Of a stretch of 64,000 bases of DNA, positions 16,744-63,993 are shown one piece after another. The stretch's first letter is position 1; each line of letters begins with the position of its first letter. The DNA comes from an uncultured Planctomycetia bacterium (GTDB taxonomy: Bacteria > Planctomycetota > MHYJ01 > WSZJ01). The notes below the pieces were generated by a model. That model searched no databases. It saw only the letters and a program-made list of their open reading frames with translations, and had not been told where the DNA came from. Both the position numbers and the translations under genes were made by a program. The stretch is taken from the NCBI GenBank assembly GCA_964590435.1, contig CAZPWT010000008.1, forward strand, positions 83,880 to 147,879, in the 5' to 3' direction.

Positions 16744-18705
16744 ATGCGCACGGCCCTGTTGCTCTTGCTTGCGGTTTCAAACGGGCTTGCCCAGGCCCCC
16801 GCCCCGCTCAAGCTGAACGTCCCGAAGGACCACCCGCGCATCGGGATCTCGTCGGCCGACCTGGACAAGGTCCGCGCGAACATCGCGAACGAGCCGTGGG
16901 CGACGCTGTGGAAGACGGTCGTGGCGAAGTCGCAGGGGACGTGCCGAGGGGCGCTCGACCCGAAGGCGTGCTTCGGCGGCGCGAGCGGGCAGGGCGCGCG
17001 GTTCACGGTCACCGAGGCGCTGGAGTGCGTGGCGCTTCACGCGCTTGTCGGGAAGGACGCGGCGGCGGCGAAGGCGCTCTCGGACTTCTTCGAAGCGTGG
17101 GACCCGTCGTCGCTCGAGAAGGACATCGGCGACACGGACTTCATGTCGAGCGGGGAGTTCTTCGAAGGGCTCGCGGTGGTGCTCGACTGGACGTGGGACC
17201 TGCTCTCGGTAAAGGGCCGCGCCGGGCTCCGCGCGATCGTCGAGCGGCGCGCGAAGCACAACTACGACGGGTTCCTCGGCAAGAAGTCCTGGGAGGCCAC
17301 GACCGACGCGAACAATCACTCGATGGCGTCGATGGGGGCGCTCGGGCTCGCGGCGGTCGCGCTGTGGCACGAGAACCCGGACGCGCCGAAATGGGCCGGG
17401 CTCGTGAAGGCGAAGATGGACTCCTACCTCGCGTCCTCCTTCGACCCCGACGGCGCCTGCTACGAAGGCACGATGTACGGCCCCTTCGGCCTCTTCCGCA
17501 TCCTCCCCTTCTCCGATTGCTGCGCCCGATTCGGCGCCGGCGACGCGATGCAGGCCCTTCTCCCGAAGGTCATCACGCAGCTCGCAAACGAGCTGACCCC
17601 CGGCCGCGACCGCATGCTCCCGATCAACGACACCGACGGGAACTTCCTGCCGTGGGGCGGGACGCTCTTCCTGTATGACGCAGTGCGTCATGAATCCCCG
17701 CTCTCGCGCTGGATGTGGACGGACCTGTCGAGGCGCCAGGCCGGCAACGGCGGGCACACGTGGGCGTTCGCGGTGCTGTGGGAGGACGGCAAGGAGGGGG
17801 GCAAGCCGCCGGAGAAGAAGGTCGCGGTGACGAAGGGGCGCGGCACGCTCACCGTCCGCACCGGCTGGGAGAAAGCCGATTTCCTCGCGGCGTTCGAGTG
17901 CGGGAAGCGGATCCCGGGGTGTCACGGGCAGTCGGACGTCGGGCATTTCCTGCTTTACGCGAAGGGCCGCTGCCTCGCCGCGGACACGGGGTACTCGAAC
18001 GAGGCGGAGGAGGGGAAGCCGCAGCAGTCGATCGGGCACAACCTCGTGCTCGTGGACGGCAAGGGAGAGGTGCTGACGGGCGGCGGTCAGGTCACCGAGG
18101 GAAAGCTCGTCCAGTGGGAGGCGCGGAAGACCCTCGTCTGGGCGCAGGCCGACCTCACCGGCGCCTTCGCGCAGAAGGCGTACAACCCGATGGCCGTCGC
18201 GACGCGCTGCTTCATCGTCCTCACCGGCCCCGACCCGTACGTCGTCGTCGCAGACGCGTTCGTGAAGGACGCGAAGGACCACGAGTACACGTGGCTGATG
18301 CACGGCAACGCCGACTCGAAGTTCGACCTCGCAAAGGACCGGGCGACGCATCTCGCCGGCGACGCCGCCCTCGACGTGGTCCCGTGCCTGCTCGACAAGG
18401 AGACGCCCGCCTTCGAAACGAAGAAGTTCCCCAGCGGCAATTTCGGCGAGCACGACATGCTCCGAGTGACCGTGAAGGCCAAGCGATGGCTCGGGCTCAC
18501 CGTGCTCGCTCCGAGGTCTTCCGCGGATCCTGCCGCCGAAGTGAAGCGGGAAATCAAGAGCGGCAAACTCGTCGTCACGGTGACGCGGGGCGGGGCGAAG
18601 GACGAGGTCACGCTGACCGCGAACCCTAATGGCGGGATCGCTTCTATCCGGGTGGTCCGGACCCTCGACGGCAAGCCGATCGCGGAGGATCTGAAGCTGA
18701 AGTAG
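16744..18705 (+). CDS. Heparinase II/III-like family protein (putative polysaccharide lyase)
   Basis: Signal peptide at internal Met (MRTALLLLLAVSNGLAQA); HGQSDVGHFLLYAKG resembles the heparinase II/III His-rich motif; ORF opens at 16594. Confidence 0.55.
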   Translation: MRTALLLLLAVSNGLAQAPAPLKLNVPKDHPRIGISSADLDKVRANIANEPWATLWKTVVAKSQGTCRGALDPKACFGGASGQGARFTVTEALECVALHALVGKDAAAAKALSDFFEAWDPSSLEKDIGDTDFMSSGEFFEGLAVVLDWTWDLLSVKGRAGLRAIVERRAKHNYDGFLGKKSWEATTDANNHSMASMGALGLAAVALWHENPDAPKWAGLVKAKMDSYLASSFDPDGACYEGTMYGPFGLFRILPFSDCCARFGAGDAMQALLPKVITQLANELTPGRDRMLPINDTDGNFLPWGGTLFLYDAVRHESPLSRWMWTDLSRRQAGNGGHTWAFAVLWEDGKEGGKPPEKKVAVTKGRGTLTVRTGWEKADFLAAFECGKRIPGCHGQSDVGHFLLYAKGRCLAADTGYSNEAEEGKPQQSIGHNLVLVDGKGEVLTGGGQVTEGKLVQWEARKTLVWAQADLTGAFAQKAYNPMAVATRCFIVLTGPDPYVVVADAFVKDAKDHEYTWLMHGNADSKFDLAKDRATHLAGDAALDVVPCLLDKETPAFETKKFPSGNFGEHDMLRVTVKAKRWLGLTVLAPRSSADPAAEVKREIKSGKLVVTVTRGGAKDEVTLTANPNGGIASIRVVRTLDGKPIAEDLKLK

Positions 18706-28116: not shown

Positions 28117-29205
28117 TTACCCCTTCTCCGGCCCTCTCGACCCGAGCTCGCGATCGATCTCGAGCAGCGCCACGGGATCGTTCTTGATGAGATTGAACTT
28201 CGCGACGATGTCCCGCGCCTGCTTCTCCTCTTCCACCTGCTCCGTCAGGAACCACTGCAGCTCGACCATGAGCGAGAAGGCCTTCTCCTTCTGGGCCAGC
28301 TCGTACAGCGCGTCGATCCGCTTCGAAACGCTCAGCTCCTGCGCCAGCGCCGCCTCGAAGACCTCCTGCATGCTCTTGAACTTCACCTTCGGCTCCGGGA
28401 TCGCGTTCAGCTTCACGCCGCCTCCACGGTTCTGGAGGAAGTCGAGCAGCTTCATGGCGTGCCCGTATTCCTCGGAGCTCTGGATCCGGAGCCACTTCGC
28501 AAATCCGTGAAAGTGGTTCGCGGAGCAGTGGGCGGACATCGCGAGGTAGGTGTAGGAAGAGACGAGCTCGTTGTTGATCTGCTCGTTGACGGCTTCGAGG
28601 ACGTTGGCGGTGACCATGGCGGCTCCTTTGGAGTGGGAGGGTCGGGACGGCGGCGCATTCTGCGTATGGAGGGCGGGAAGCGCAACTCCTTGTAGCGTGG
28701 AGATTTCTGGCCAGCCGTAGCCGGCGTGGGGGAGGTCCTGGGAACCGAAGCGGGAGGACTTCTCGCCGGCGGGGCGGCCGCCGAGGGACTCGTAGAAGCG
28801 GCGGGAGGGGGCGTTGTCGCGGAGGACCCAGAGGACCATGGCGCGGTGGCCGGCGGCAGCCAGGTCGCGGGCGAGGGCGGCGACGAGGGCGCTTCCCAGG
28901 CCTTTTCCTGCAAAGGCTTTGCGGATGTAAATCGCGTACAGCTCGGCGTCGTATTCGGTGTCGAGATCGCGGTTGGGGCCCCCCGTCGCGAACCCCACGA
29001 CTTTGCCGCGCACCTCCGCCACGAACGTGATCGTCCCGGGCGTCGCCAGCCGCTGGCGGCGGCGCTTCTCGAAGTCCGCGTACGACAGCGATTTCAGGTA
29101 AGCGGCGTCGACGATGCCGCGGTAGGCGGTGCGCCACGTGTCGACGTGGACGCGGGCGATCGCCGGCGCGTCGGATTCGGTCGCGGGTCGGATGCGCGGG
29201 GTCAT
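28117..29205 (-). CDS. GNAT N-acetyltransferase and ferritin in one uninterrupted frame (ferritin domain 28117..28617 has its own ATG and RBS)
   Basis: GNAT N-terminus (MTPRIRPATESDAPAIARVHVDTW..GKGLGSALVAAL..RFYESLGG), Pro/Ala linker, then ferritin (VLEAVNEQINNELVSSYTYLAMSAHC..EEYGHAMKLLDFL) with no stop between; AAGGAG 5 nt before the internal ferritin ATG; GNAT ATG overlaps upstream stop. Confidence 0.6.
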   Translation of the reverse strand: MTPRIRPATESDAPAIARVHVDTWRTAYRGIVDAAYLKSLSYADFEKRRRQRLATPGTITFVAEVRGKVVGFATGGPNRDLDTEYDAELYAIYIRKAFAGKGLGSALVAALARDLAAAGHRAMVLWVLRDNAPSRRFYESLGGRPAGEKSSRFGSQDLPHAGYGWPEISTLQGVALPALHTQNAPPSRPSHSKGAAMVTANVLEAVNEQINNELVSSYTYLAMSAHCSANHFHGFAKWLRIQSSEEYGHAMKLLDFLQNRGGGVKLNAIPEPKVKFKSMQEVFEAALAQELSVSKRIDALYELAQKEKAFSLMVELQWFLTEQVEEEKQARDIVAKFNLIKNDPVALLEIDRELGSRGPEKG

Positions 29206-30197
29206 GCGGGGACGGCGCTTCGACTGAGGAAGCGTCCCATCGCGAGGAACCACGGGCAAAGGAGGACGGTGAGGAGGGCGGTGGTGACCTTGATGGCGGC
29301 GAGGGAGTCGGCGAGGCCGGCGGCGGTCATGGCGAAGCCGGTGAGCCAGAGGGCCCAGGTCCAGGCGCGGAGCCAGCGCGGGAGGGCGGGGGTGGCGAGC
29401 GTGAGGACGACGCCGGCGACGCAATAGAGGCCGTTGGCGAAGATCGTGGTGATGAGGCCGAGGGCATGGGGCCAGTGGCGCGGGACTTCGGAAGTGCCGA
29501 ACGCGAGGACCGCTTCGCAGCCGAGGTCGAACGTGGCACCGATGCAGGCGAGCGCGAAGGCGGCGCGACTGGCGCGGGACGACGGGAGGAAGGAGCCCCA
29601 CCAGCCGTAGAACGCGATGAGGGTGAGTGCGCCGAGCATCCAGAGGCCCCAGCTGGCGGCCCAGCGGGGCTCGACGCCCTGGAACCACACGAACCTTTCG
29701 CGGCCGAGGGGGTCCTTCTCGAAGTACGGCGCGATCACGAACGCCATCGCGAACGCCGCGGCCGTGTGGACGACCGCGGCGGCCCACGGCGCGGCGCGGC
29801 GGATCGACGTCCCGATGTCGTGTCCGTCGAGCAGCCGCAGACCGAATGGCAGGAAGCGCGCGAGGGACGTGAACACGGGGACGACCAGCAGCAGCGGGGA
29901 CGCGCCGCGGGAGACGAGAAGCGCCCAGAGCCCCGCGTCGGCGGCGGACGCGACGAACCCGGCGAGCGCCGCGACGCCGTGCCACTTCGGGCGGAACGCG
30001 GCGAGACAGAAAACCGCCGCCAGGGAGACATGGAAGCCGCCGTAAACGCGCGCCCCAAGCTCGAGCCCGGCGTCGCGCCAAAGCAGCTGCCGCACGCCCT
30101 CGAACGCCAGGATCGCCACCAGGGCAAGACAGGCGCTGATCGCGGCCGCATGCGCGAACACGAACGCATGGCATTCCTCGCGCCGCGGATGGCTCAT
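29202..30197 (-). CDS. Multi-pass membrane protein, hypothetical
   Basis: Several hydrophobic helices; stop overlaps GNAT start (ATGA); start chosen at internal Met (ORF extends to 30320). Confidence 0.55.
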   Translation of the reverse strand: MSHPRREECHAFVFAHAAAISACLALVAILAFEGVRQLLWRDAGLELGARVYGGFHVSLAAVFCLAAFRPKWHGVAALAGFVASAADAGLWALLVSRGASPLLLVVPVFTSLARFLPFGLRLLDGHDIGTSIRRAAPWAAAVVHTAAAFAMAFVIAPYFEKDPLGRERFVWFQGVEPRWAASWGLWMLGALTLIAFYGWWGSFLPSSRASRAAFALACIGATFDLGCEAVLAFGTSEVPRHWPHALGLITTIFANGLYCVAGVVLTLATPALPRWLRAWTWALWLTGFAMTAAGLADSLAAIKVTTALLTVLLCPWFLAMGRFLSRSAVPA

Positions 30198-48690: not shown

Positions 48691-49119
48691 CTACTTCTTC
48701 CCCTTCACGCCCTCTTCGAACGCGCTCCACGCCAGCAGCGCGCATTTCACGCGCACCGGGAACTTCCTCACGCCCTCCAGCGCCACGATGTCGCCCAGCG
48801 GGTCGGCTTCGTGCTTTTTGGTCTCGCCGCGCATCATCTTCTTGAAGAGCGCCGCGCTGGACATGGCGTCGGCCATGGGCTTGCCCTTGAGGATTTCGGT
48901 CATGAGGGAAGCGGAAGCCTGGGAGATGGCGCAGCCGCGGCCGCGGAACTTGACGTCGGCGACCTTGCCGTCCTTGAGGGAGACGTGGAGGGTGATGTCG
49001 TCGCCGCAGAAGGGATTGTTCATGGAGATGGAGACGTCGGGCGAGGCGATTTCGCCGCGGTTCCGGGGAGCCTTGAAGTGCTCCATGATGATTTCCTGGT
49101 ACAGGCTTTCTAGCGACAT
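48691..49119 (-). CDS. sufU: SUF-type Fe-S cluster scaffold SufU/NifU-like (copy 1)
   Basis: NPFCGDDITL, GRGCAISQASAS and VKCALLAW conserved Cys motifs. Confidence 0.8.
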   Translation of the reverse strand: MSLESLYQEIIMEHFKAPRNRGEIASPDVSISMNNPFCGDDITLHVSLKDGKVADVKFRGRGCAISQASASLMTEILKGKPMADAMSSAALFKKMMRGETKKHEADPLGDIVALEGVRKFPVRVKCALLAWSAFEEGVKGKK

Positions 49120-50339
49120 CCGAAGAACTCCCGTGTGCGGTTGAGGGAATCGACCATCTGGTCGATCTCGGACGTGGAAGTATACACGTAGAAGCTGGCG
49201 CGCGCCGTAGCGACGACACCGAGGCGGCGCATGAGGGGCTGGGCGCAGTGGTGGCCGGCGCGGATGCAGAGGCCGTCCTGGTCGAGGCAGGTGGCGAGGT
49301 CGTGGGGGTGGATCGGCTCGAGGGTGAAGCAGGCGACGCCGCCGCGGGGGCCGGACTGGGGGCCGAAGAGGACGCAGCCGGGAATGGCGGCGAGTTTCTT
49401 CTGGGCGTAGTCGGCGAGGGCTTCCTCGTGGGCGTGGACGGCGTCGAGGCCGAGCCCTTCGAGGTAATCGATGGCGGCGCCGAGGCCGGCGACCTCGGCG
49501 ACGGCGGGGGTGCCGGGCTCGAAGCGGTGCGGCGGGTCGCGGAACGTGGACTTGTCGAGGTACACCTCGAGGATCGTCTCACCGCCGACCATGAACGGGT
49601 CCATCTCGCGCAGGATCTCCGGCCGCGCCCAGAGCACGCCAACCCCCGTCGGGCCGCACATCTTGTGCGCGCTGAACGCGTAGAAATCGCAGCCGAGCGC
49701 GCCGACGTCGACCTTCATGTGCGGCGCCGCCTGCGCCCCGTCGGCGAGGAGCAGCGCCCCGACCGCGTGCGCCTTCGCCGCGATCTGCGCGATCGGGTTG
49801 ATCGTGCCGAGGACGTTCGAGGCGTGGCAGAGGGCAACAAGCCTGGTTTTCCGGGTGAGAAGGGCGTCGAGCGTCGAGAGGTCGAGGCGGCCTTCGTCCG
49901 TAATCGGGATGTGCTTCAGCACGATCCCCCGGTCGCGCTTCAACAGGTGCCACGGGACGAGATTCGAATGGTGCTCCATCTCCGTCAGCAGCACCTCATC
50001 GCCCGCCTTCAGGAACTTCCGCCCCCACCCGTGCGCCACGAGATTCACGGCCTCGGTCGTATTGCGGACGTAGATCACGCCCTCGGCCGACGGCGCGCCG
50101 ATGAACTTCGCGATCTTCTCGCGCGTCCCCTCGAACATCGCCGTCGCTTCCTCGGAAAGCTTGTACGCCCCGCGGTGGACGTTCGCGTTCATCTCGCGAT
50201 AGAAGCGCGCCATCGCTTCGATCACGGCCTCGGGCTTCTGCGACGTCGCGGCGCTGTCGAGATAGACGAGCGGCTTGCCGCGGACCTGGCGTGAGAGGAT
50301 CGGGAAGTCGGCGCGCACGCGAGCGGGATCGAGGTGCAT
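49110..50339 (-). CDS. sufS: Cysteine desulfurase SufS (copy 1)
   Basis: RADFPILSRQVRGKPLVYLDSAATSQKP, PLP-lysine SAHKMCGPTG, active-site RAGHHCAQP; start at internal ATG 50339 preceded by GAGG. Confidence 0.85.
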   Translation of the reverse strand: MHLDPARVRADFPILSRQVRGKPLVYLDSAATSQKPEAVIEAMARFYREMNANVHRGAYKLSEEATAMFEGTREKIAKFIGAPSAEGVIYVRNTTEAVNLVAHGWGRKFLKAGDEVLLTEMEHHSNLVPWHLLKRDRGIVLKHIPITDEGRLDLSTLDALLTRKTRLVALCHASNVLGTINPIAQIAAKAHAVGALLLADGAQAAPHMKVDVGALGCDFYAFSAHKMCGPTGVGVLWARPEILREMDPFMVGGETILEVYLDKSTFRDPPHRFEPGTPAVAEVAGLGAAIDYLEGLGLDAVHAHEEALADYAQKKLAAIPGCVLFGPQSGPRGGVACFTLEPIHPHDLATCLDQDGLCIRAGHHCAQPLMRRLGVVATARASFYVYTSTSEIDQMVDSLNRTREFFGCR

Positions 50340-50423
50340 TTGAGCCTCATTAAACCGGCGCGGCGTGCGACTGCAGGAAAAAAGAGGCTCGACGGATTGA
50401 TTCGCTGCCCCCGGGCCGGTAGG

Positions 50424-50458
50424 ATTCCGATACACATTCGGAGTATCGGAATGTGTAT
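50424..50458. promoter_or_regulatory. Palindromic operator candidate upstream of vapB
   Basis: ATTCCGATAC-N9-GTATCGGAAT perfect 10-bp inverted repeat with overlapping ATACACATTCGG half-sites, ending 12 nt before the vapB Shine-Dalgarno. Confidence 0.45.
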
Positions 50459-50470
50459 AAGGAGGGATTG

Positions 50471-50683
50471 ATGCGCCGTACGAACATCGTCATCGACGAG
50501 ATCCTAGTCCGCCGGGTCATGAAGGCCTTCGGCGTGAATTCCATGAAAGAAGCGGTCCACAAGGCCCTTCAGCAGGCCGACGAGCGCTCGAAGACCTACG
50601 AGGCCATGCGGGAACTCCGGGGCAAGCTCCACTGGGAAGGCGACATCGACGCATGGCGGAGGAATCGGCTTGATCGTCGTTGA
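50471..50683 (+). CDS. vapB: Type II antitoxin VapB-like
   Basis: AAGGAGGG before ATG; 70 aa; overlaps the downstream PIN gene. Confidence 0.7.
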   Translation: MRRTNIVIDEILVRRVMKAFGVNSMKEAVHKALQQADERSKTYEAMRELRGKLHWEGDIDAWRRNRLDRR

Positions 50684-51065
50684 CTCCGCGGTCTGGGTCG
50701 CCTGGTTCAACGGCCGCGCGGACCCGCACGTGAGCCGCCTCGACCGTGGCCGCGCCCGGAAAGAGGATTTCGCCACCGCACCCCTGATCATCACCGAGGT
50801 GCTGCAGGGCTTTGCTGACGACCGCGAGTTCGAGCGAGCGCGCGACTTCATGATCCGCCTGCCGTCGCTGGCCCTCGACGAGAACGGTCATGTCGAGGCG
50901 GCGCGACTGTACCGGACCCTTCGGAAGCGGGGTTTGACGATCCGGGGCACGGTGGACTGCATCATCGCCCAGACGTGCATTTCCAACGCCTGCGAGCTCC
51001 TCAGCCCCGACCGCGATTTCGCCGCCATAGCGAAGCACTCTGCGCTGAAGTTGTGTGCGGTTTGA
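50670..51065 (+). CDS. vapC: PIN-domain toxin VapC
   Basis: IVVDSAVWVAWF, PLIITEVLQG and DCIIAQTCI PIN motifs; TTG start overlapping vapB by 14 nt. Confidence 0.75.
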   Translation: MIVVDSAVWVAWFNGRADPHVSRLDRGRARKEDFATAPLIITEVLQGFADDREFERARDFMIRLPSLALDENGHVEAARLYRTLRKRGLTIRGTVDCIIAQTCISNACELLSPDRDFAAIAKHSALKLCAV

Positions 51066-51110
51066 TCGACGCTGGACGGTTGCATGGACGTTCACGACAA
51101 ACCGACCCGG

Positions 51111-51563
51111 TCATTCCGTGCTGACCGTCTCCGCCTTCCCCTTCAGCGCCGCCTCCAGCGCGTGCCACGAGAGCGTCGCGCACTTCACGCGCACCGGGAA
51201 CTCGGCCACGCCGGCGAAGATCGCGAGCTTGCCCAGGTCTTCGCCCTCGTAGGGCTTGCCGGCGTCGCGCGTCACCATCGCGTGGTACTTGCGGAAGAGC
51301 GCTTCCGCGTCGGCCTTCGACTTGCCGATGAGCTCCTGGGTCATGATGGAGGCGGCGGCGCGGGAGATGGCGCAGCCGTTGCCGAGGAAGCCGATGTCGG
51401 CGATTTTCTCGCCGTCCATCTTGAGGAAGACCTGGATATGGTCGCCGCAGAGGGGGTTGGCGCCGGCGGCCTTGTGGGTGGCGTCGGGGATGAGCTTGAA
51501 ATTCCGGGGGCGCTTGTAGTGCTCGAGGATGACGTCGCCGTAGAGGTCGGTGAGGTCGCTCAT
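51111..51563 (-). CDS. sufU: SUF-type Fe-S cluster scaffold SufU/NifU-like (copy 2)
   Basis: NPLCGDHIQV, GNGCAISRAAAS, VKCATLSW; ATG overlaps sufS stop (ATGA). Confidence 0.8.
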   Translation of the reverse strand: MSDLTDLYGDVILEHYKRPRNFKLIPDATHKAAGANPLCGDHIQVFLKMDGEKIADIGFLGNGCAISRAAASIMTQELIGKSKADAEALFRKYHAMVTRDAGKPYEGEDLGKLAIFAGVAEFPVRVKCATLSWHALEAALKGKAETVSTE

Positions 51564-52843
51564 GACGTGAACACCTCCACGACCTTGCGGAGGGCGGCCT
51601 CGAGGGCGAGGGCTTCCTCCGGAGTGTTGTAGAACGCGACGGAAGCGCGGGCGGTGGCGGGGAGGCCGAGGCGGGTCATGACGGGCTGGGCACAGTGGTG
51701 GCCGGTGCGGATGGCGACGCCCTCGCGGTCGGCGATGGTGCCGATATCGTGGGGGTGGATGCCCTCGAGGACGAAGGAAGCGACGCCGGCCTTGTCCTTC
51801 GCGGTGCCGACGAGTTTCGCGCCGGGGACGCGGAGGATGGCGGCCTCGAAGGCGGCGAGGAGTTCCTTTTCGCGGGCGGCGATGCGGTCCATGCCGATCG
51901 CCGACAGGTAGTCGATCGCGGCGCCGAGTCCGACGACGCCCTCGATGTTCGGGGTGCCGGCTTCGAACTTCGCGGGGACCTCGGCCCAGGTGGACTTCTC
52001 GAAGCTGACGCTGGAGATCATGTCGCCGCCGCCCTGCCACGGGGGAAGCGAGTTCCAGAGGGCGAGCGGGGCCCAGGCGACGCCGATGCCGGTGGGGGCG
52101 CACATCTTGTGGCCGCTGAAGATATAGAAGTCGGCGCCGATGTCTTTCACGTTCACGGGCTGGTGCGGGACGGCCTGCGCGCCGTCGACGAGGACCGTCG
52201 CGCCGGCGGCCTTCGCCATCCGGGCGATCTCGCGGATCGGGGTGACGGTGCCGAGGGCGTTCGAGACGTGCGTGACGGCGACGAGCTTCGTCTTCGGCGA
52301 CAGGAGCTTCGCGTACTCCGCCATGTCCAGCTCGCCCGCGTCGTTCATGGGGATGACGCGGATCTTCGCGCCCTTCTCTTCGCACAGCAGCTGCCACGGG
52401 ACGATGTTCGAGTGGTGCTCGAGCGTCGAGAGCACGATCTCGTCGCCCTTCCCGATCCGCGTCCGCCCGAACGTCTGGGCGACGAGGTTGATCCCCTCGG
52501 TGGCGCCGCGGACGAAGACGCACTCGCGGGGATCGGCGGCATTGATGAAGCGGGCGACTTTCTTCCGGACGCCCTCGTACGCGATCGTCGCCTGCTCGGA
52601 GAGCCAGTGCACGCCGCGGTGGATGTTGGCGTTGTGCGATTCGTAGTACTCGCGCACCGCGTCGATGACGACCTGCGGCTTCTGGCTCGTCGCGGCGTTG
52701 TCGAGGTAGACGAGCGGCTTGTTGCGCACGGACTGCTTCAACGCCGGAAAGTCGGATCGCACGGCAGCCCAGTCGACCGGGCGGTCGGGGCCAGGCCCTT
52801 CAACCTTCGACCTTCGACCTTCGACGCCGTTCTCCGTCCTCAA
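51560..52843 (-). CDS. sufS: Cysteine desulfurase SufS (copy 2)
   Basis: RSDFPALKQSVRNKPLVYLDNAATSQKP, SGHKMCAPTG, RTGHHCAQP; TTG start placed to overlap the sufD stop (TTGA), a GTG about 75 nt downstream is an alternative; ORF 51560..53389 has an Arg-rich upstream extension. Confidence 0.75.
   Translation of the reverse strand: MRTENGVEGRRSKVEGPGPDRPVDWAAVRSDFPALKQSVRNKPLVYLDNAATSQKPQVVIDAVREYYESHNANIHRGVHWLSEQATIAYEGVRKKVARFINAADPRECVFVRGATEGINLVAQTFGRTRIGKGDEIVLSTLEHHSNIVPWQLLCEEKGAKIRVIPMNDAGELDMAEYAKLLSPKTKLVAVTHVSNALGTVTPIREIARMAKAAGATVLVDGAQAVPHQPVNVKDIGADFYIFSGHKMCAPTGIGVAWAPLALWNSLPPWQGGGDMISSVSFEKSTWAEVPAKFEAGTPNIEGVVGLGAAIDYLSAIGMDRIAAREKELLAAFEAAILRVPGAKLVGTAKDKAGVASFVLEGIHPHDIGTIADREGVAIRTGHHCAQPVMTRLGLPATARASVAFYNTPEEALALEAALRKVVEVFTS
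52797..52828. repeat. GTCGAAG heptamer tandem array (reverse-complement copy)
   Basis: Minus strand reads ggcgtcgaaggtcgaaggtcgaaggttgaagg, shortly after the sufD stop; same unit as 43002..43026 with one extra copy. Confidence 0.6.
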
Positions 52844-60891: not shown

Positions 60892-62865
60892 TCAGGGCCG
60901 GCCGACGTCCAGGATCTCGATCCACGGCTCCGGCGACTCGAGCCGCTTCGCGCCGGCCGCGGCGAGCTTCGCGAGGTTATCGCGCGTCACTTCGGGGTCG
61001 AGGCCGTAAGTCTTCCGCAGGCGTTCGGCCTCGTCCCAGTTCGCGATGACGAGCGTCACGCCGGATTGACGCAGTGCGTCAAGAACGGCCGCGGGGTCGC
61101 CCTTCGCCGCGCGCCACGCCCGCGCGAACGGGCTCGTCTCGAACGGGTCGGCGTAGACGCACGCCCCGGGGACGTAGAACGCCCGCGCTTCGCCGATGAG
61201 AAGCGGCTTGCGGTCGCGGAGGCCCTCGAAGCGATCGGCGAGGAAGCGCGGGTCGGCGAGGGCCTCGGCGGCCGACGGCGGCGACGCGTTTTCCGCGCCG
61301 CGGTGGAGCAGGGCGCCGTGCCACAGGGCGTGCCCCGCGGCGAGCGCGGCGACGGCCGGCCACGCGAGCCGCGCGGGGAGCGCCGCGGCGCCGAGGCCGG
61401 CGCAGAGCGAGAGCGGGAGCGTGAGCGGTTGCAGGAAGCGCGGCTGGAGGTGGGTGGCGGAGAGCCAGAACAGGACCTGGAGGCCCGCGAAGACGGTAGC
61501 GCCGCCGGCGAGGGCGCGGGTCGGGCGCTTCGACAGCGCCAGGCCGAGCCCGGCGGCGGCGGCGGCGAGCCATGCCAGGCCGTAACCGGGGTCGCCGAAG
61601 CCGCGCGTCCAGACGGCGGCGACGCGTTCCCCGGCGGAGGCGCGCGGGAAGTGTCCGTTGATGAAGCGCCACTCCTCGGTTTCGCCCCAGTGCGCGCGGC
61701 CGAGGACGCGGGTCGCGAATGGGAACACGGGGTTGTGCGTCCAGGCGGCGTTGCGGGCGAGGTAGGGCACGTGGACGGCGAGCCCCGCGGCGCAGAAAAC
61801 CAGCGCGGCGAGCGCGAGGCGCTTCGGCGGAGTGCGCGCTGCCCCTTCTTCCCTGTCGCGGAATGCCGCGGCCGCCGCGAGCGCCGGCAGGAACAGGAAC
61901 CCGGCCGCGGTGAGCTTGGTCCCGACGGCGGCGCCGGCGCAGAGGCCCGCCGCCGCCATGACGCGGTGCGTCAACGGCCCTTCCCAGAGCACGACCAGTG
62001 CGCAGAGCCCGAGGAACGCCGCGGCCTGCTCGTTGTAGGCGAGCGAGCCGGTGACGAGGTTCCAGGGGACGGCGAGGTAGGCGCAGGCCGCGGCGGCGCC
62101 GGCGGCGCGCGAGCCGGTGCGGGCGCCGGCCCAGAGGCCGAGCAGGAGCGCCGTCCCGGCCGCAAACGACGCGTGCAGCCACTGCGCCCCGAGCATCCCT
62201 TCGTAGGCGCCGCCCCGAAGCGCGAAGACGCCGAGCGTCAGCATCTCGAAGTTCAGCGGCAGGTAGGAGTACAGGTTGTGCGGCAGGGCGCCGATCCCGC
62301 CGGACTCGAGCCACTCGCGCGGCACCTGCAGGTGGTACTCCAGCGCGTCGTACCCCTTGGCCTCCGACGGCCACAGCAGGCCGGGGGGAAACGAAGCGGC
62401 GACGGCGAGCACGGCGACGAGCGGCGCGGCGAGCGCGACGGCCGGGTGGGCGAAGAGTTCCCGGCCGCGGGCGAGCAGGCCCCGGAGGTCGCGCCCGGCG
62501 AGCGCCGCGACGACGCCGGCGAGGAGGAGGATCGCGACGACGGGAGCGCGGGCGAGCCCCGCGAGGCCGAGCAGGTGAAGGACGGTCATGAGCGCCGCGA
62601 ACCCGAGCCCGGCCTCGGCCGCAAACCGCGCGGCGACGGGCGCCCGGCCGCCCGCGAACGGATCCTCGCCGCGGCCCAGCACGGCCGAGGCCGCGAGCCG
62701 GCCGATTCCCAGCGCCGCCCCCCAGAACAGCGCCGCCGTCCCGCCCTCGAGCACCAGCGTGATCGCCCATGCCCCGGCGGCGGGAAGCGCCGAGAGCCTC
62801 GCCAGCACGGCCAGGACAGCCGCCAAGAACGCGGCAACCGGCACGAGAGGGAGGAAGCGGTTCAC
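60892..62865 (-). CDS. Polytopic membrane protein, possibly a PMT/ArnT-like glycosyltransferase
   Basis: 657 aa with more than 10 predicted hydrophobic helices; function is a guess from architecture. Confidence 0.65.
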   Translation of the reverse strand: MNRFLPLVPVAAFLAAVLAVLARLSALPAAGAWAITLVLEGGTAALFWGAALGIGRLAASAVLGRGEDPFAGGRAPVAARFAAEAGLGFAALMTVLHLLGLAGLARAPVVAILLLAGVVAALAGRDLRGLLARGRELFAHPAVALAAPLVAVLAVAASFPPGLLWPSEAKGYDALEYHLQVPREWLESGGIGALPHNLYSYLPLNFEMLTLGVFALRGGAYEGMLGAQWLHASFAAGTALLLGLWAGARTGSRAAGAAAACAYLAVPWNLVTGSLAYNEQAAAFLGLCALVVLWEGPLTHRVMAAAGLCAGAAVGTKLTAAGFLFLPALAAAAAFRDREEGAARTPPKRLALAALVFCAAGLAVHVPYLARNAAWTHNPVFPFATRVLGRAHWGETEEWRFINGHFPRASAGERVAAVWTRGFGDPGYGLAWLAAAAAGLGLALSKRPTRALAGGATVFAGLQVLFWLSATHLQPRFLQPLTLPLSLCAGLGAAALPARLAWPAVAALAAGHALWHGALLHRGAENASPPSAAEALADPRFLADRFEGLRDRKPLLIGEARAFYVPGACVYADPFETSPFARAWRAAKGDPAAVLDALRQSGVTLVIANWDEAERLRKTYGLDPEVTRDNLAKLAAAGAKRLESPEPWIEILDVGRP

Positions 62866-63222
62866 GGGCGGATGCTAACGGCGCGGCGGGCGGGCGGAAA
62901 GGACCGCGCGCCGGGGCCGGAAGGCGGCCGCAGGGACGTCATGACGCAGTGCGTCACCTCCCTCGGGAAGCGGGCATTTACGGGGTGCCCTGCGGACACT
63001 TCGGGGCGTTTAGAGGGGTTCTCCCTCGGAAACGTCGTCCGCAGGGTCGAATTGTGAAGAGTTTTCCCTTGGGCGGCCTGCAGGCGGATGGGGGGATTTT
63101 CTCATGTCCCACTTAACCCATTGCGCCACAAGGCTTTGTGCCATTTTCAGTCGGGCTCGCCCGCGATTCCGCCGCTTTCCCCCGCGTGTGGAAAACTCGT
63201 GGAAAGTCGACCAGCGACTCCC

Positions 63223-63993
63223 TTATTCCCTCTGCGGCACGGCGATCAGCACCTGCGTCCCGGGCACCGCCGCGAGCCCCGTCACGCTCGACCATCCCGT
63301 CATGCTTTCGGGCACATACGCCTTTTTCGCCGTCCCGCTCCGCACCGTGATCTTCGCACCGAATCCCTTCACCGCCTTAACCACCTCCCGCAACCCGTGC
63401 CCCCGCCCAGGATCGTCATGCCGCGACCGGTGCTCCTCGAACGCCGCTTCAATCGCCTCCCGGTCCGTGAGATATCGGTCCCCGTACGAGGCGCGCACGC
63501 CTCTTCCGGCATCCGCGACGGCGATCTTGAGGATATTGCGGCCGCGGAAGCGGTAGCGGTGGACGGCGACCCAGCCGGGGCCCTCGGCGTGCTCGGGGAT
63601 GTTGTGGCAAAGCTCGGCGAGGACGACGACGAAGCGACTGGACTGGGCGCGGTCGAAGCCGAGGTGGTCGCCGAGGAACGCGGGGGCGCGGTGGTGGAGG
63701 CGTTCGAGCATGGCGGAGACGTCGGCGTCGCGCTCGAGGCGCGTGAACGTCAGGAGCGAGTCGGAGTCGCCCTCGGGGGCGGGGGCGCGCTCGAGGGCGG
63801 CGTTGAAGCCGACGCGCCGGAGCCACGAGCGGACGACCAGCGGGCGCGGGGGCAACCACGACGCGCCGGCGCCGAGATGCGCGAGCAGCACCGCCGCCGC
63901 GGAAAGGTCGATGCGCTCGGCGGCTGAGAGATCGAGCGCGCGGCCCCGCGACTGGACCAGGAGACGGTCGAGATCGTCCTGATAGAGCTTCAT
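63223..63993 (-). CDS. Histidine-kinase-like ATPase protein (anti-sigma-factor-type kinase, inferred)
   Basis: LAELCHNIPEHAEGPGWVAV and IAVADAGRGV resemble the HATPase_c N and G boxes. Confidence 0.55.
   Translation of the reverse strand: MKLYQDDLDRLLVQSRGRALDLSAAERIDLSAAAVLLAHLGAGASWLPPRPLVVRSWLRRVGFNAALERAPAPEGDSDSLLTFTRLERDADVSAMLERLHHRAPAFLGDHLGFDRAQSSRFVVVLAELCHNIPEHAEGPGWVAVHRYRFRGRNILKIAVADAGRGVRASYGDRYLTDREAIEAAFEEHRSRHDDPGRGHGLREVVKAVKGFGAKITVRSGTAKKAYVPESMTGWSSVTGLAAVPGTQVLIAVPQRE

What the first reader, a model, noticed from the sequence alone, without database searches (positions are those of the whole stretch)
62941..62956. Palindromic motif ATGACGCA-G-TGCGTCA in three exact copies plus one variant
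ATGACGCAGTGCGTCA occurs at 62941..62956 (intergenic, about 80 nt upstream of the membrane-protein gene start) and at 17675..17690 (inside the heparinase-like CDS); its 15-nt core TGACGCAGTGCGTCA also occurs at 61067..61081 (inside the membrane-protein CDS, there as the perfect palindrome TTGACGCAGTGCGTCAA). A one-mismatch variant TGACGCGGTGCGTCA is at 61968..61982. Each is a 7-8 bp inverted repeat around one central base, the geometry of a dimeric DNA-binding protein site, with half-site TGACGCA close to the CRE-type TGACG core. Three exact copies of a 15-mer in 64 kb are far above chance.
Basis: seen in the sequence. Interest (0 to 1): 0.45.

Follow-up and report, generated by a model that had tools for sequence, protein, structure and literature searches.

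The report
Conserved palindromic protein-binding site, binder unknown
A 17-base palindrome (W-TGACGC-RSY-GCGTCA-W) is real and far above chance, and one lineage of uncultured Planctomycetota keeps it by selection even inside genes; it clusters on one membrane-protein gene and is most likely the docking site of an unidentified dimeric DNA-binding protein.

Summary
TGACGCAGTGCGTCA is exact at 17676, 61067 and 62942. The variant TGACGCGGTGCGTCA is at 61959-61973, not 61968-61982 as reported. It is the only 15-mer with three or more copies in the window, and shuffles that keep protein sequence and codon usage never reach the three copies seen in coding sequence (0 of 5000).

The window comes from an uncultured Planctomycetota genome. 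Relatives whose membrane protein is 54-89% identical keep TGACGC-N3-GCGTCA at the same places:
- 66-84 bp upstream of the membrane-protein gene, as an invariant island in a variable stretch;
- at +892 and +1784 inside that gene;
- inside the heparinase-like gene.

The coding copies depend on rare codons (CGT, CAA, GCA, TAT). Three further copies arose in single lineages through substitutions. Twenty sites give the motif W-TGACGC-R-S-Y-GCGTCA-W. In 1.13 Mb of outgroup Planctomycetota DNA the motif occurs at chance level.

Best reading: a recognition site for a two-fold symmetric DNA-binding protein, forming a multi-operator cluster on the membrane-protein gene. Six of seven site positions are intragenic, so a ram/parS-like role in chromosome organisation remains a serious rival. 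The half-site equals that of the B. subtilis RacA ram site, with a spacer 1 bp longer. The binding protein was not identified. The resemblance to the CRE element is superficial.

The parts
62941..62957 (.). Intergenic copy aTGACGCAGTGCGTCAc. Its centre is 84 bp upstream of the GTG start (62865) of the membrane-protein gene.
   Evidence: Exact match. The orthologous upstream site is present in five lineages, with its centre 66-84 bp from the start. All 12 core columns are invariant while the flanks and spacer vary.
61066..61082 (.). Intragenic copy (+1784 in the gene) TTGACGCAGTGCGTCAA. On the coding strand it reads CTT GAC GCA CTG CGT CAA (L-D-A-L-R-Q).
   Evidence: Exact match. The rare codons CGT (3.7% of Arg), CAA (7.3% of Gln) and GCA (3.8% of Ala) are used. 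The same site is kept in L014, L017 and L009, the last only 59% identical.
61958..61974 (.). Intragenic copy (+892) aTGACGCGGTGCGTCAa. On the coding strand it reads TTG ACG CAC CGC GTC ATG (L-T-H-R-V-M), in a different reading frame from the +1784 copy.
   Evidence: It is kept in L014, L016, L019 and L018. It uses common codons, and synonymous changes break it in L015, so this is the copy with the weakest evidence for DNA-level constraint.
17675..17691 (.). Intragenic copy in the heparinase II/III-like gene: TAT GAC GCA GTG CGT CAT (Y-D-A-V-R-H).
   Evidence: Exact match. L094 and L095 keep it with the same rare codons despite a V-to-A change in the spacer. L093 has lost it and uses common codons, TAC GAC GCC GCG CGG CAC.
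60892..62865 (-). Gene for a 657-aa polytopic membrane protein. It shows only faint GT-C/PMT-like and DUF8201 signals. It is the host and apparent main target of the site cluster.
   Evidence: ORF. No Pfam hit for the window protein. Relatives give faint PF26626, PF03901, PMT and Mannosyl_trans4 hits. The closest relatives carry 2-3 sites each and every relative down to 54% identity carries at least one.
16744..18705 (+). Heparinase II/III-like gene (DSE-like_N plus Hepar_II_III_C domains) hosting the fourth copy.
   Evidence: Pfam. The database gene call P0040 is 653 aa.
62866..63222 (-). Conserved 357-bp intergenic region upstream of the membrane-protein gene; it contains the upstream copy. 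On the minus strand the conserved blocks are: CTTTCCG-N17/18-TAGCAT-N6-GTG (62863-62901), CGTAAATGCCC (62970-62985), hairpin GAGGG-loop-CCCTC (63006-63032), TTCACA (63048-63061), and the direct repeat TTCCAC-N5-TTCCAC (63187-63206).
   Evidence: Five-lineage alignment A2, coordinates. RNAalifold gives no covariation support. No Rfam match. The simple scan finds no sigma-70-type promoter or terminator.

Best explanation
The motif W-TGACGC-R-S-Y-GCGTCA-W is the recognition site of a sequence-specific, two-fold symmetric (dimeric) double-stranded-DNA-binding protein. That protein is specific to one lineage of uncultured Planctomycetota.

Shown:
- Purifying selection holds the sites in place.
- New sites arise by point substitution, including inside coding sequence.

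Inferred:
- The main target is the 657-aa membrane-protein gene. One operator lies about 66-84 bp upstream of the start codon, upstream of a probable CTTTCCG-N17/18-TAGCAT promoter that would give a leaderless mRNA.
- One or two identical operators lie 0.9 and 1.8 kb into the gene.
- Together they would let the protein control transcription of this gene, either by cooperative bridging or looping, or as a loading site with roadblock action.
- The single intragenic sites in the heparinase-like, sufS and GH77 genes would be further binding points of the same protein.

The binding protein itself is not identified.
For: 1. The motif is non-random.
2. It is kept at orthologous positions in lineages 54-89% identical in the membrane protein. 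The upstream site is an invariant 6+6 island in a variable stretch in 5 of 5 close lineages.
3. Coding copies are kept with rare A/T-ending codons. Across the whole genes, such codons are retained in relatives only 14-40% of the time.
4. Site turnover. L018 lacks the +1784 site but has a new one at +1577. L017 gained one in sufS and L095 gained one in GH77. Each gain needed several substitutions, some non-synonymous, and all read xxT GAC GCN NNG CGT CAx.
5. Positions not imposed by the search pattern are symmetric: base 7 is always R, base 9 always Y, and the flanks are W in 36 of 40 cases, including non-complementary A..A and T..T pairs. This is what independently read half-sites predict.
6. 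Sites are all-or-none. The lineage has 20 exact sites in 230 kb, while one-mismatch sites are only slightly above chance (7 in 230 kb against about 1.4 expected, two of them decayed orthologous copies). The outgroup has 1 exact site in 1.13 Mb.
7. Every relative of 54% identity or more carries 1-3 sites on this one gene.
Against: - No candidate binding protein was found next to the cluster. The neighbours are a histidine kinase, a GHKL-ATPase-like 256-aa protein, a HEAT-repeat protein and a GGDEF protein.
- Six of 7 independent positions are intragenic, which is not typical of a transcription factor regulon.
- The two most distant lineages that still have sites, L009 and L018, lack the upstream operator and keep only intragenic sites.
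- The heparinase-like gene has no promoter-proximal site.
- The promoter assignment is inferred from conserved blocks only. The simple sigma-70 scan finds nothing.
- No whole genome of the lineage could be scanned, and all lineage DNA examined is syntenic with this window.
Confidence: 0.45

Rival explanations
1. Chromosome-organisation or centromere-like sites, working like RacA-ram, ParB-parS, MatP-matS, Noc-NBS or SlmA-SBS. A structural DNA-binding protein recognises scattered palindromes that only need to lie roughly at given chromosomal positions. Because the genome is about 90% coding, most sites then fall inside genes. The three-site cluster would be a nucleation or anchoring point.
For: - Six of 7 independent positions are intragenic and are kept with rare codons or created by amino-acid-changing substitutions.
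- Site specificity is all-or-none.
- The half-site TGACGC is identical to that of the ram site TGACGCCGGCGTCA. Ram sites occur in clusters that enhance binding (PMC4914108).
- The central RSY resembles the RNY centre of matS (my own knowledge of matS, GTGACRNYGTCAC).
Against: - In five lineages the cluster is tied to one gene and includes a site at a roughly constant distance from its start codon.
- No origin or terminus markers (dnaA, parAB, dif) are in the window or its flanks. The window has no canonical parS and only one DnaA-box-like element.
- Such systems are few per genome, whereas transcription factors are many, so the prior is lower.
Confidence: 0.22
2. An RNA-level element. The transcribed hairpin UGACGC-NNN-GCGUCA (6-bp stem, 3-nt loop) in the 5' region and body of the mRNAs would be recognised by an RNA-binding protein or a nuclease, controlling mRNA stability or translation.
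For: - The hairpin alone folds at -6.6 kcal/mol. It is predicted with pair probability of 0.6 or more in 14 of 19 native contexts.
- A palindrome is transcribed as the same hairpin whichever strand the gene is on.
Against: - Not one compensatory change occurs in the stem across at least 7 independent positions and 20 sites. The loop is what varies, the reverse of what is usual for hairpin recognition.
- The symmetric R..Y preference sits in positions that cannot pair in a 3-nt loop. The W flanks are kept even when they are not complementary.
- If the conserved CTTTCCG-N17/18-TAGCAT-N6-GTG is the promoter, the upstream copy is not part of this mRNA (inference).
- RNAalifold gives no covariation support for the intergenic region, and there is no Rfam family.
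Confidence: 0.1
3. Sites for site-specific recombination (inversion or deletion) that switch the membrane-protein gene on or off.
For: - In the window, the upstream and +1784 copies are identical direct 15-mers.
- In L014, the upstream and +892 copies are identical.
- In L017, the upstream and +1775 copies are exact reverse complements of each other.
Against: - With an R-N-Y spacer, a match is expected by chance in about one genome in four, and L019 has none.
- A 6-3-6 site is much shorter than known recombinase sites.
- The window and four other independent assemblies of the same organism all show the same arrangement.
- No recombinase gene is nearby.
- The idea does not explain the single sites in other genes.
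Confidence: 0.04
4. Chance, or a by-product of codon bias and a recurrent peptide (D-A-x-R-Q/H).
For: - The +892 copy uses common codons and has a probability of about 0.06 given its peptide.
- Five coding copies share one reading frame.
Against: - Zero of 5000 synonymous shuffles reach the observed count.
- The copies use the rarest codons.
- One copy is intergenic and conserved.
- Outgroup DNA of similar composition has the motif at chance level.
- Frame sharing is expected anyway: the third frame would read TGA, a stop codon.
Confidence: 0.02

Closest known systems
RacA-binding motif (ram), TGACGCCGGCGTCA, of Bacillus subtilis (PMC4914108)
   Same: - Identical GC-rich hexamer half-sites TGACGC/GCGTCA in inverted orientation.
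- Ram sites occur in clusters.
- Ram sites serve chromosome anchoring, not promoter control, so a location inside genes is natural.
   Different: - The spacer here is 3 bp (a 15-bp core), against 2 bp in ram (14 bp).
- RacA is a sporulation protein of Bacillus. No RacA-like protein was sought or found here.
- Closeness to the origin could not be tested.
- The half-site identity may be coincidence.
Operators with auxiliary intragenic copies: lac O1/O2/O3, glpD internal operators, deo operators (from my own knowledge)
   Same: One promoter-proximal palindromic site plus identical sites hundreds of bp to about 1-2 kb away, some inside the coding sequence. This allows cooperative binding or looping.
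   Different: - No regulator gene is adjacent.
- The upstream site lies outside the core promoter.
- In two lineages only the intragenic copies remain.
- Further single intragenic copies occur in unrelated genes.
KorB operator OB (TTTAGCGGCTAAA) of plasmid RK2, a ParB-family CTP-dependent sliding clamp (PMC11790492)
   Same: - An odd-length palindrome with a central G/C.
- KorB sites act on promoters from up to 1.5 kb away by loading a clamp that slides along the DNA. This mechanism would make sense of copies at +0.9 and +1.8 kb.
   Different: - The sequence is different.
- KorB is a plasmid system with a partner protein, KorA.
- No ParB-like gene was seen in the window or flanks.
MatP-matS (GTGACRNYGTCAC) and ParB-parS (TGTTNCACGTGAAACA) (from my own knowledge)
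   Same: Short, highly specific palindromes scattered at low density, many of them intragenic. matS has the same R-N-Y centre and shares the TGAC/GTCA tetramers.
   Different: - TGAC and GTCA are 7 bp apart here, against 3 bp in matS.
- There is no similarity to parS, and no parS in the window.
- MatP is restricted to enterobacteria and vibrios.
CRE / bZIP site TGACGTCA
   Same: It shares the pentamer TGACG.
   Different: CRE is an 8-bp abutting palindrome bound by eukaryotic bZIP proteins. Here the pentamers are separated by 5 bp and the specificity extends to TGACGC-R.

Membership tests
RacA ram site | Half-site TGACGC in inverted repeat | tested here: met
   All 20 sites have TGACGC...GCGTCA. 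The ram sequence was confirmed in PMC4914108.
RacA ram site | 14-bp palindrome with a 2-bp (CG) centre | tested here: not met
   The spacing is 3 in every copy. Spacing 2 occurs 0 times in the window and once in 1.2 Mb of related loci.
RacA ram site | A RacA-type protein (GlnR/TnrA-like winged helix plus coiled coil) in the genome, and sites clustered near the origin | not testable with these tools
   No whole genome of the lineage was accessible. No such protein was recognised in the window or flanks.
ParB-parS centromere | 16-bp consensus TGTTNCACGTGAAACA | tested here: not met
   No match at up to 3 mismatches in the window. The motif sequence is unrelated.
MatP-matS | 13-bp GTGAC-RNY-GTCAC | tested here: not met
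   The centre is R-S-Y, as in matS, but TGAC and GTCA are 7 bp apart, not 3.
Fur-family 7-1-7 box | Two complementary heptamers around one base, AT-rich core (TGATAAT-N-ATTATCA type) | tested here: not met
   Bases 7 and 9 are non-complementary in many copies (ACC, AAC, GCT, AGC) and the core is GC-rich.
CRE / bZIP site | Abutting 8-bp palindrome TGACGTCA | tested here: not met
   TGACG and CGTCA pair at spacing 5 in all four window copies. Spacing 0 occurs 0 times.
Operator set with auxiliary intragenic operators (lac/glp/deo type) | A promoter-proximal site plus one or more identical sites within about 2 kb of the same transcription unit | tested here: met
   Sites at -84, +892 and +1784 in the window, with the same layout in L014. 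L017 and L019 each have two sites; L015 has the upstream site and a decayed +892 copy.
Operator set with auxiliary intragenic operators (lac/glp/deo type) | A cognate regulator, and an effect of the sites on transcription | not testable with these tools
   No DNA-binding domain was detected in neighbouring genes. There are no expression data.
REP/BIME-type extragenic palindromes | Extragenic location, longer shared arms, many copies downstream of genes | tested here: not met
   Six of 7 positions are in coding sequence, and the flanks are not shared. A true REP-like family with the same core does exist in unrelated metagenome contigs.
Intrinsic terminator or known RNA family | Stem-loop followed by a T-run, or a match to an Rfam model | tested here: not met
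   No terminator-like site in 62700-63400. No Rfam match at gathering score in the window, and only one sub-threshold hit (19 bits against 60) near the intergenic region.

The most novel reading that the evidence does not exclude
An uncultured Planctomycetota lineage has a previously unknown centromere-like or chromosome-anchoring system. Its sites, W-TGACGC-RSY-GCGTCA-W, use the same half-site as the ram site of Bacillus RacA with a spacer one base pair longer. They are scattered through coding DNA and nucleate at a three-site cluster on one membrane-protein gene. Alternatively, a ParB/KorB-like sliding clamp loads at these sites and silences the gene from inside its own coding sequence.
Probability: 0.2. 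Interest if true: 0.75.

Novelty: new member of a known kind. Interest (0 to 1): 0.5.

Why it matters
Little is known about gene regulation or chromosome organisation in Planctomycetota, and my literature searches found no paper containing this motif. Here a highly specific 17-bp site can be defined from sequence alone. Selection on it is strong enough to hold rare codons in place and to change amino acids.

This gives a concrete bait for finding the binding protein, whether by DNA-affinity capture, DAP-seq, or phylogenetic profiling against sister lineages that lack the motif. It also gives a defined target gene on which to test the effect.

If the binding protein proves to be a chromosome organiser or a sliding clamp, it would be a new system of that type in a phylum with unusual cell biology. 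If it is an ordinary repressor, this is still a clear example of protein-coding sequence being shaped by overlapping operator sites.

Tried and rejected
1. Rfam, over the whole window at gathering score and over the intergenic region at E up to 1: nothing usable.
2. tRNA and tmRNA search: none.
3. Promoter and terminator consensus scan of 62700-63400: nothing.
4. A structured-RNA reading of the conserved intergenic region: RNAalifold gives no covariation support.
5. Origin of replication or centromere context: no parS, only one perfect DnaA-box-like element, and no dnaA or parAB genes.
6. Looking for the binding protein among neighbours and small ORFs with Pfam and NCBIfam: no DNA-binding domain found.
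No contig related to this lineage was recovered (tblastn). It did turn up an unrelated REP-like family.
8. Viral-contig scan: single background hits only.
9. Literature search for the motif: no paper.
10. Fur-type 7-1-7, CRE, RirA-type TGA-N9-TCA and sigma-54 activator readings: considered from memory and dropped. The sequence, spacing or promoter context does not fit, and there is no GG-N10-GC element between the site and the start codon.
11. Recombination-site reading: weak, see the rival explanations.
12. Profile search of the membrane protein family against PDB sequences: only spurious hits to designed repeat proteins.

Full report
**Observation.**
TGACGCAGTGCGTCA is exact at window positions 17676-17690, 61067-61081 and 62942-62956. 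All four copies have G at the centre on the + strand. The flanks share no similarity beyond one base.

**Is it more than chance?**
- Dinucleotide shuffles give 0.14 matches at up to 2 mismatches, against 8 strand-matches observed.
- This is the only 15-mer present three or more times in the 64 kb. Three of the 4 TGACGCA and four of the 7 TGCGTCA heptamers in the window sit in these copies.
- TGACGC and GCGTCA face each other only at spacing 3. No copy has two mismatches.
- I shuffled synonymous codons within each of 34 likely genes, which keeps every protein sequence and each gene's codon usage. The mean is 0.078 sites, and none of 5000 shuffles reaches the 3 sites observed in coding sequence.
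- Codon and oligonucleotide bias therefore do not explain the motif.

**Context.**
- The window is about 68% G+C and comes from an uncultured Planctomycetota genome.
- Three copies surround one gene, 60892-62865 on the minus strand. It encodes a 657-aa polytopic membrane protein with only faint GT-C/PMT-like and DUF8201 signals.
- Relative to that gene, one copy is centred 84 bp upstream of the GTG start, one is at +892 and one at +1784.
- The fourth copy is about 930 bp into a heparinase II/III-like gene, 45 kb away.
- Co-directional genes lie upstream of the membrane-protein gene: a 256-aa GHKL-ATPase-like protein, a HAMP-HisKA histidine kinase, a periplasmic binding protein and a multihaem cytochrome.
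- Downstream, on the opposite strand, are a HEAT-repeat protein and a 602-aa protein of unknown function. Beyond them, co-directional again, are a GGDEF protein and the suf operon.
- No DNA-binding domain was detected in any neighbour.

**Relatives.**
I fetched orthologous loci for proteins 44-89% identical and 79 loci from species-representative genomes.
- In 1.21 Mb of these genomes, TGACGC-N3-GCGTCA occurs 13 times. Twelve of these are in the six closest genomes. Every other spacing from 0 to 8 gives 0 or 1.
- The upstream site is present in all five close lineages, centred 66-84 bp before the start codon. In the alignment its 12 core columns are invariant, while the spacer and the adjoining sequence vary.
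- The +892 site is present in L014, L016, L019 and L018.
- The +1784 site is present in L014, L017 and L009, the last only 59% identical.
- The heparinase site is present in two of three relatives.
- Homologues at 50% identity or below, and all Phycisphaerae loci, lack the motif. The outgroup has 1 exact site in 1.13 Mb, against 20 in 230 kb of this lineage and 0.05 per 200 kb expected.

**Refined motif.**
Twenty sites, counted on both strands, give W-TGACGC-R-S-Y-GCGTCA-W.
- Base 7 is always a purine and base 9 always a pyrimidine.
- The centre is C or G in 34 of 40 cases.
- The flanking bases are A or T in 36 of 40 cases, in a genome that is 68% G+C.
- None of these positions was imposed by the search pattern.
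- The unit is therefore 6-3-6 with symmetric edges.
- Non-complementary flank pairs (A..A, T..T) occur. This fits two independently read half-sites better than an extended stem.

**Selection inside genes.**
- In this genome, CGT is 3.7% of Arg codons, CAA 7.3% of Gln, GCA 3.8% of Ala and CTT 6.3% of Leu.
- The +1784 copy reads xTT GAC GCN NTG CGT CAA in four lineages.
- The heparinase copy reads TAT GAC GCA GNG CGT CAY in three lineages, despite a Val-to-Ala change in the spacer. The lineage that lost the site uses the common codons TAC GAC GCC GCG CGG CAC.
- Across the same genes, A/T-ending codons are retained in relatives only 14-40% of the time.
- Sites also arise anew:
  - L018 lacks the +1784 copy but has CAT GAC GCA ACG CGT CAA at +1577, in a poorly conserved segment.
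  - L017 has ATT GAC GCG GTG CGT CAA in sufS, where the window has ATC GAC GCG GTG CGC GAG.
  - L095 has TTT GAC GCA GTG CGT CAA in a GH77 gene, where the window has TTC GAG GCC CTC CGC AAA.
- Each gain needed several substitutions, some of them changing amino acids.
- The +892 copy is the exception. It uses common codons (probability about 0.06 given its peptide) and has decayed through synonymous changes in L015, so on its own it could be a by-product.

**What it is not.**
- No Rfam family, tRNA or terminator is present.
- It is not a REP-type extragenic repeat, although an unrelated organism in two metagenome projects has a true REP-like family built on the same core with 13-bp arms.
- There is no parS in the window. 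There is no origin-like cluster of DnaA boxes.
- No paper in the library contains the motif.

**Mechanism.**
The two hexamers are invariant, the spacer is free, the edge preferences are symmetric and the specificity is all-or-none. Together these point to a two-fold symmetric protein that reads double-stranded DNA. This much I hold at about 0.8.

How it acts is inferred. The most likely reading (0.45) is a regulator whose main target is the membrane-protein gene:
- One operator sits upstream of a probable promoter. The conserved CTTTCCG-N17/18-TAGCAT-N6-GTG suggests a leaderless transcript.
- One or two operators sit inside the gene, giving cooperative bridging or looping, a roadblock, or loading of a clamp that slides.
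- Supporting this, every relative down to 54% identity keeps 1-3 sites on this gene, even when individual sites turn over.

The main rival (0.22) is a role in chromosome organisation:
- Six of 7 independent positions are intragenic.
- L009 and L018 keep only intragenic copies.
- The half-site equals that of the RacA ram site TGACGCCGGCGTCA, whose copies also cluster (PMC4914108).

Other readings:
- An RNA hairpin cannot be excluded, because the hairpin is predicted to form in most contexts. It is disfavoured by the complete lack of compensatory changes and by symmetry at positions that cannot pair.
- A recombination-site reading and a chance reading are both weak.

**Comparison with known systems.**
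- The motif works like a highly specific operator or centromere-type palindrome.
- It fails the defining spacing of ram (3 bp, not 2).
- It fails the defining sequences of parS and matS.
- It fails the complementarity and composition of Fur-type boxes.
- It fails the geometry of CRE.
- It meets the layout criterion of operator sets with auxiliary intragenic copies, but the regulator and its effect are untested.
- KorB, whose odd-length OB site acts from up to 1.5 kb away by loading a sliding clamp (PMC11790492), is a useful functional analogy for the copies inside the gene.

**Limits.**
- No complete genome of the lineage could be scanned.
- All lineage DNA examined (230 kb) is syntenic with this window, so genome-wide density and domain-level distribution are unknown.
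- In flanking DNA that was not chosen for the motif, I saw about 2-3 sites in about 200 kb.
- The binding protein is unidentified.

**Verdict.**
This is a real, selected, lineage-specific protein-binding palindrome: a new member of a known kind. The binding protein is unknown, and the choice between gene regulation and chromosome organisation is unresolved.

Noticed in passing
window 63187-63206 (minus strand); L001 5018-5037 and the same block in L014, L015, L017, L019, L009, L010: A strongly conserved direct repeat, CTTTCCAC-GAG-TTTTCCACA (TTCCAC twice, 11-bp period), begins the intergenic region. This is the geometry of an OmpR/PhoB-type response-regulator site, and a histidine kinase is encoded two genes upstream. 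The second unit, TTTTCCACA, is also a perfect DnaA-box consensus (TTWTNCACA). It overlaps a conserved hairpin, TTTTCC...GGGAAA. It is kept even in lineages that lack the palindrome.
   Followed up: partly
window 62863-62901 (minus strand): Conserved CTTTCCG-N17/18-TAGCAT-N6-GTG lies immediately before the start codon, with no Shine-Dalgarno sequence. This suggests a sigma-70-like promoter that gives a leaderless mRNA for the membrane-protein gene.
   Followed up: partly
window 62970-63061 (minus strand): Further invariant intergenic blocks: CGTAAATGCCC, a hairpin GAGGG-(3-5 nt)-CCCTC followed by ATAAACGC, and TTCACA. An AT-rich patch (down to 30-38% G+C in relatives) lies between the direct repeat and these blocks. 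There is no Rfam match and no covariation support, so their function is unknown.
   Followed up: partly
window 62935-62947: In the window lineage only, a third half-site (gACGTCA) abuts the upstream palindrome. It forms a second, overlapping 10-bp palindrome, CGTCATGACG, with GACGTC inside it. Relatives lack it.
   Followed up: no
L100 1-200; L118 11650-11876; L189 6430-6640 (metagenome contigs FWWM..., FWPU...): An unrelated 65% G+C organism carries an intergenic repeat family, GTGTGCCACTGCTTGACGC-NNN-GCGTCAAGCAGTGCGATC. It has 13-bp arms and occurs as 2-3 copies spaced 63-106 bp apart downstream of genes. This is a REP/BIME-like element built on the same core hexamers.
   Followed up: partly
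L014 165; L015 1457; L019 505 (flotillin/Band_7 gene): A one-mismatch copy, TGACGTCCTGCGTCA, is conserved inside the flotillin gene of three relatives. L010 has TCACGTCCTGCGTCA at the same place. It could be a weak site or simply protein constraint.
   Followed up: no
window 49110-52840 and 50670-51065: Two SufS-like cysteine desulfurase paralogues (49110-50435 and 51560-52840, both minus strand) flank a PIN-domain gene at the end of the sufBCDS cluster.
   Followed up: no
window 28117-30174 (minus strand): An unusual fusion ORF has a GNAT acetyltransferase domain followed by a ferritin-like domain. In relative L095 the two are separate genes; in L093 and L094 they are fused.
   Followed up: no
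L006 9111-9635: In the 79%-identity lineage, a DUF1877 gene is inserted between the 256-aa ATPase-like gene and the membrane-protein gene. The conserved intergenic blocks and the palindrome stay next to the membrane-protein gene, so they belong to that gene and not to the end of the upstream operon.
   Followed up: yes
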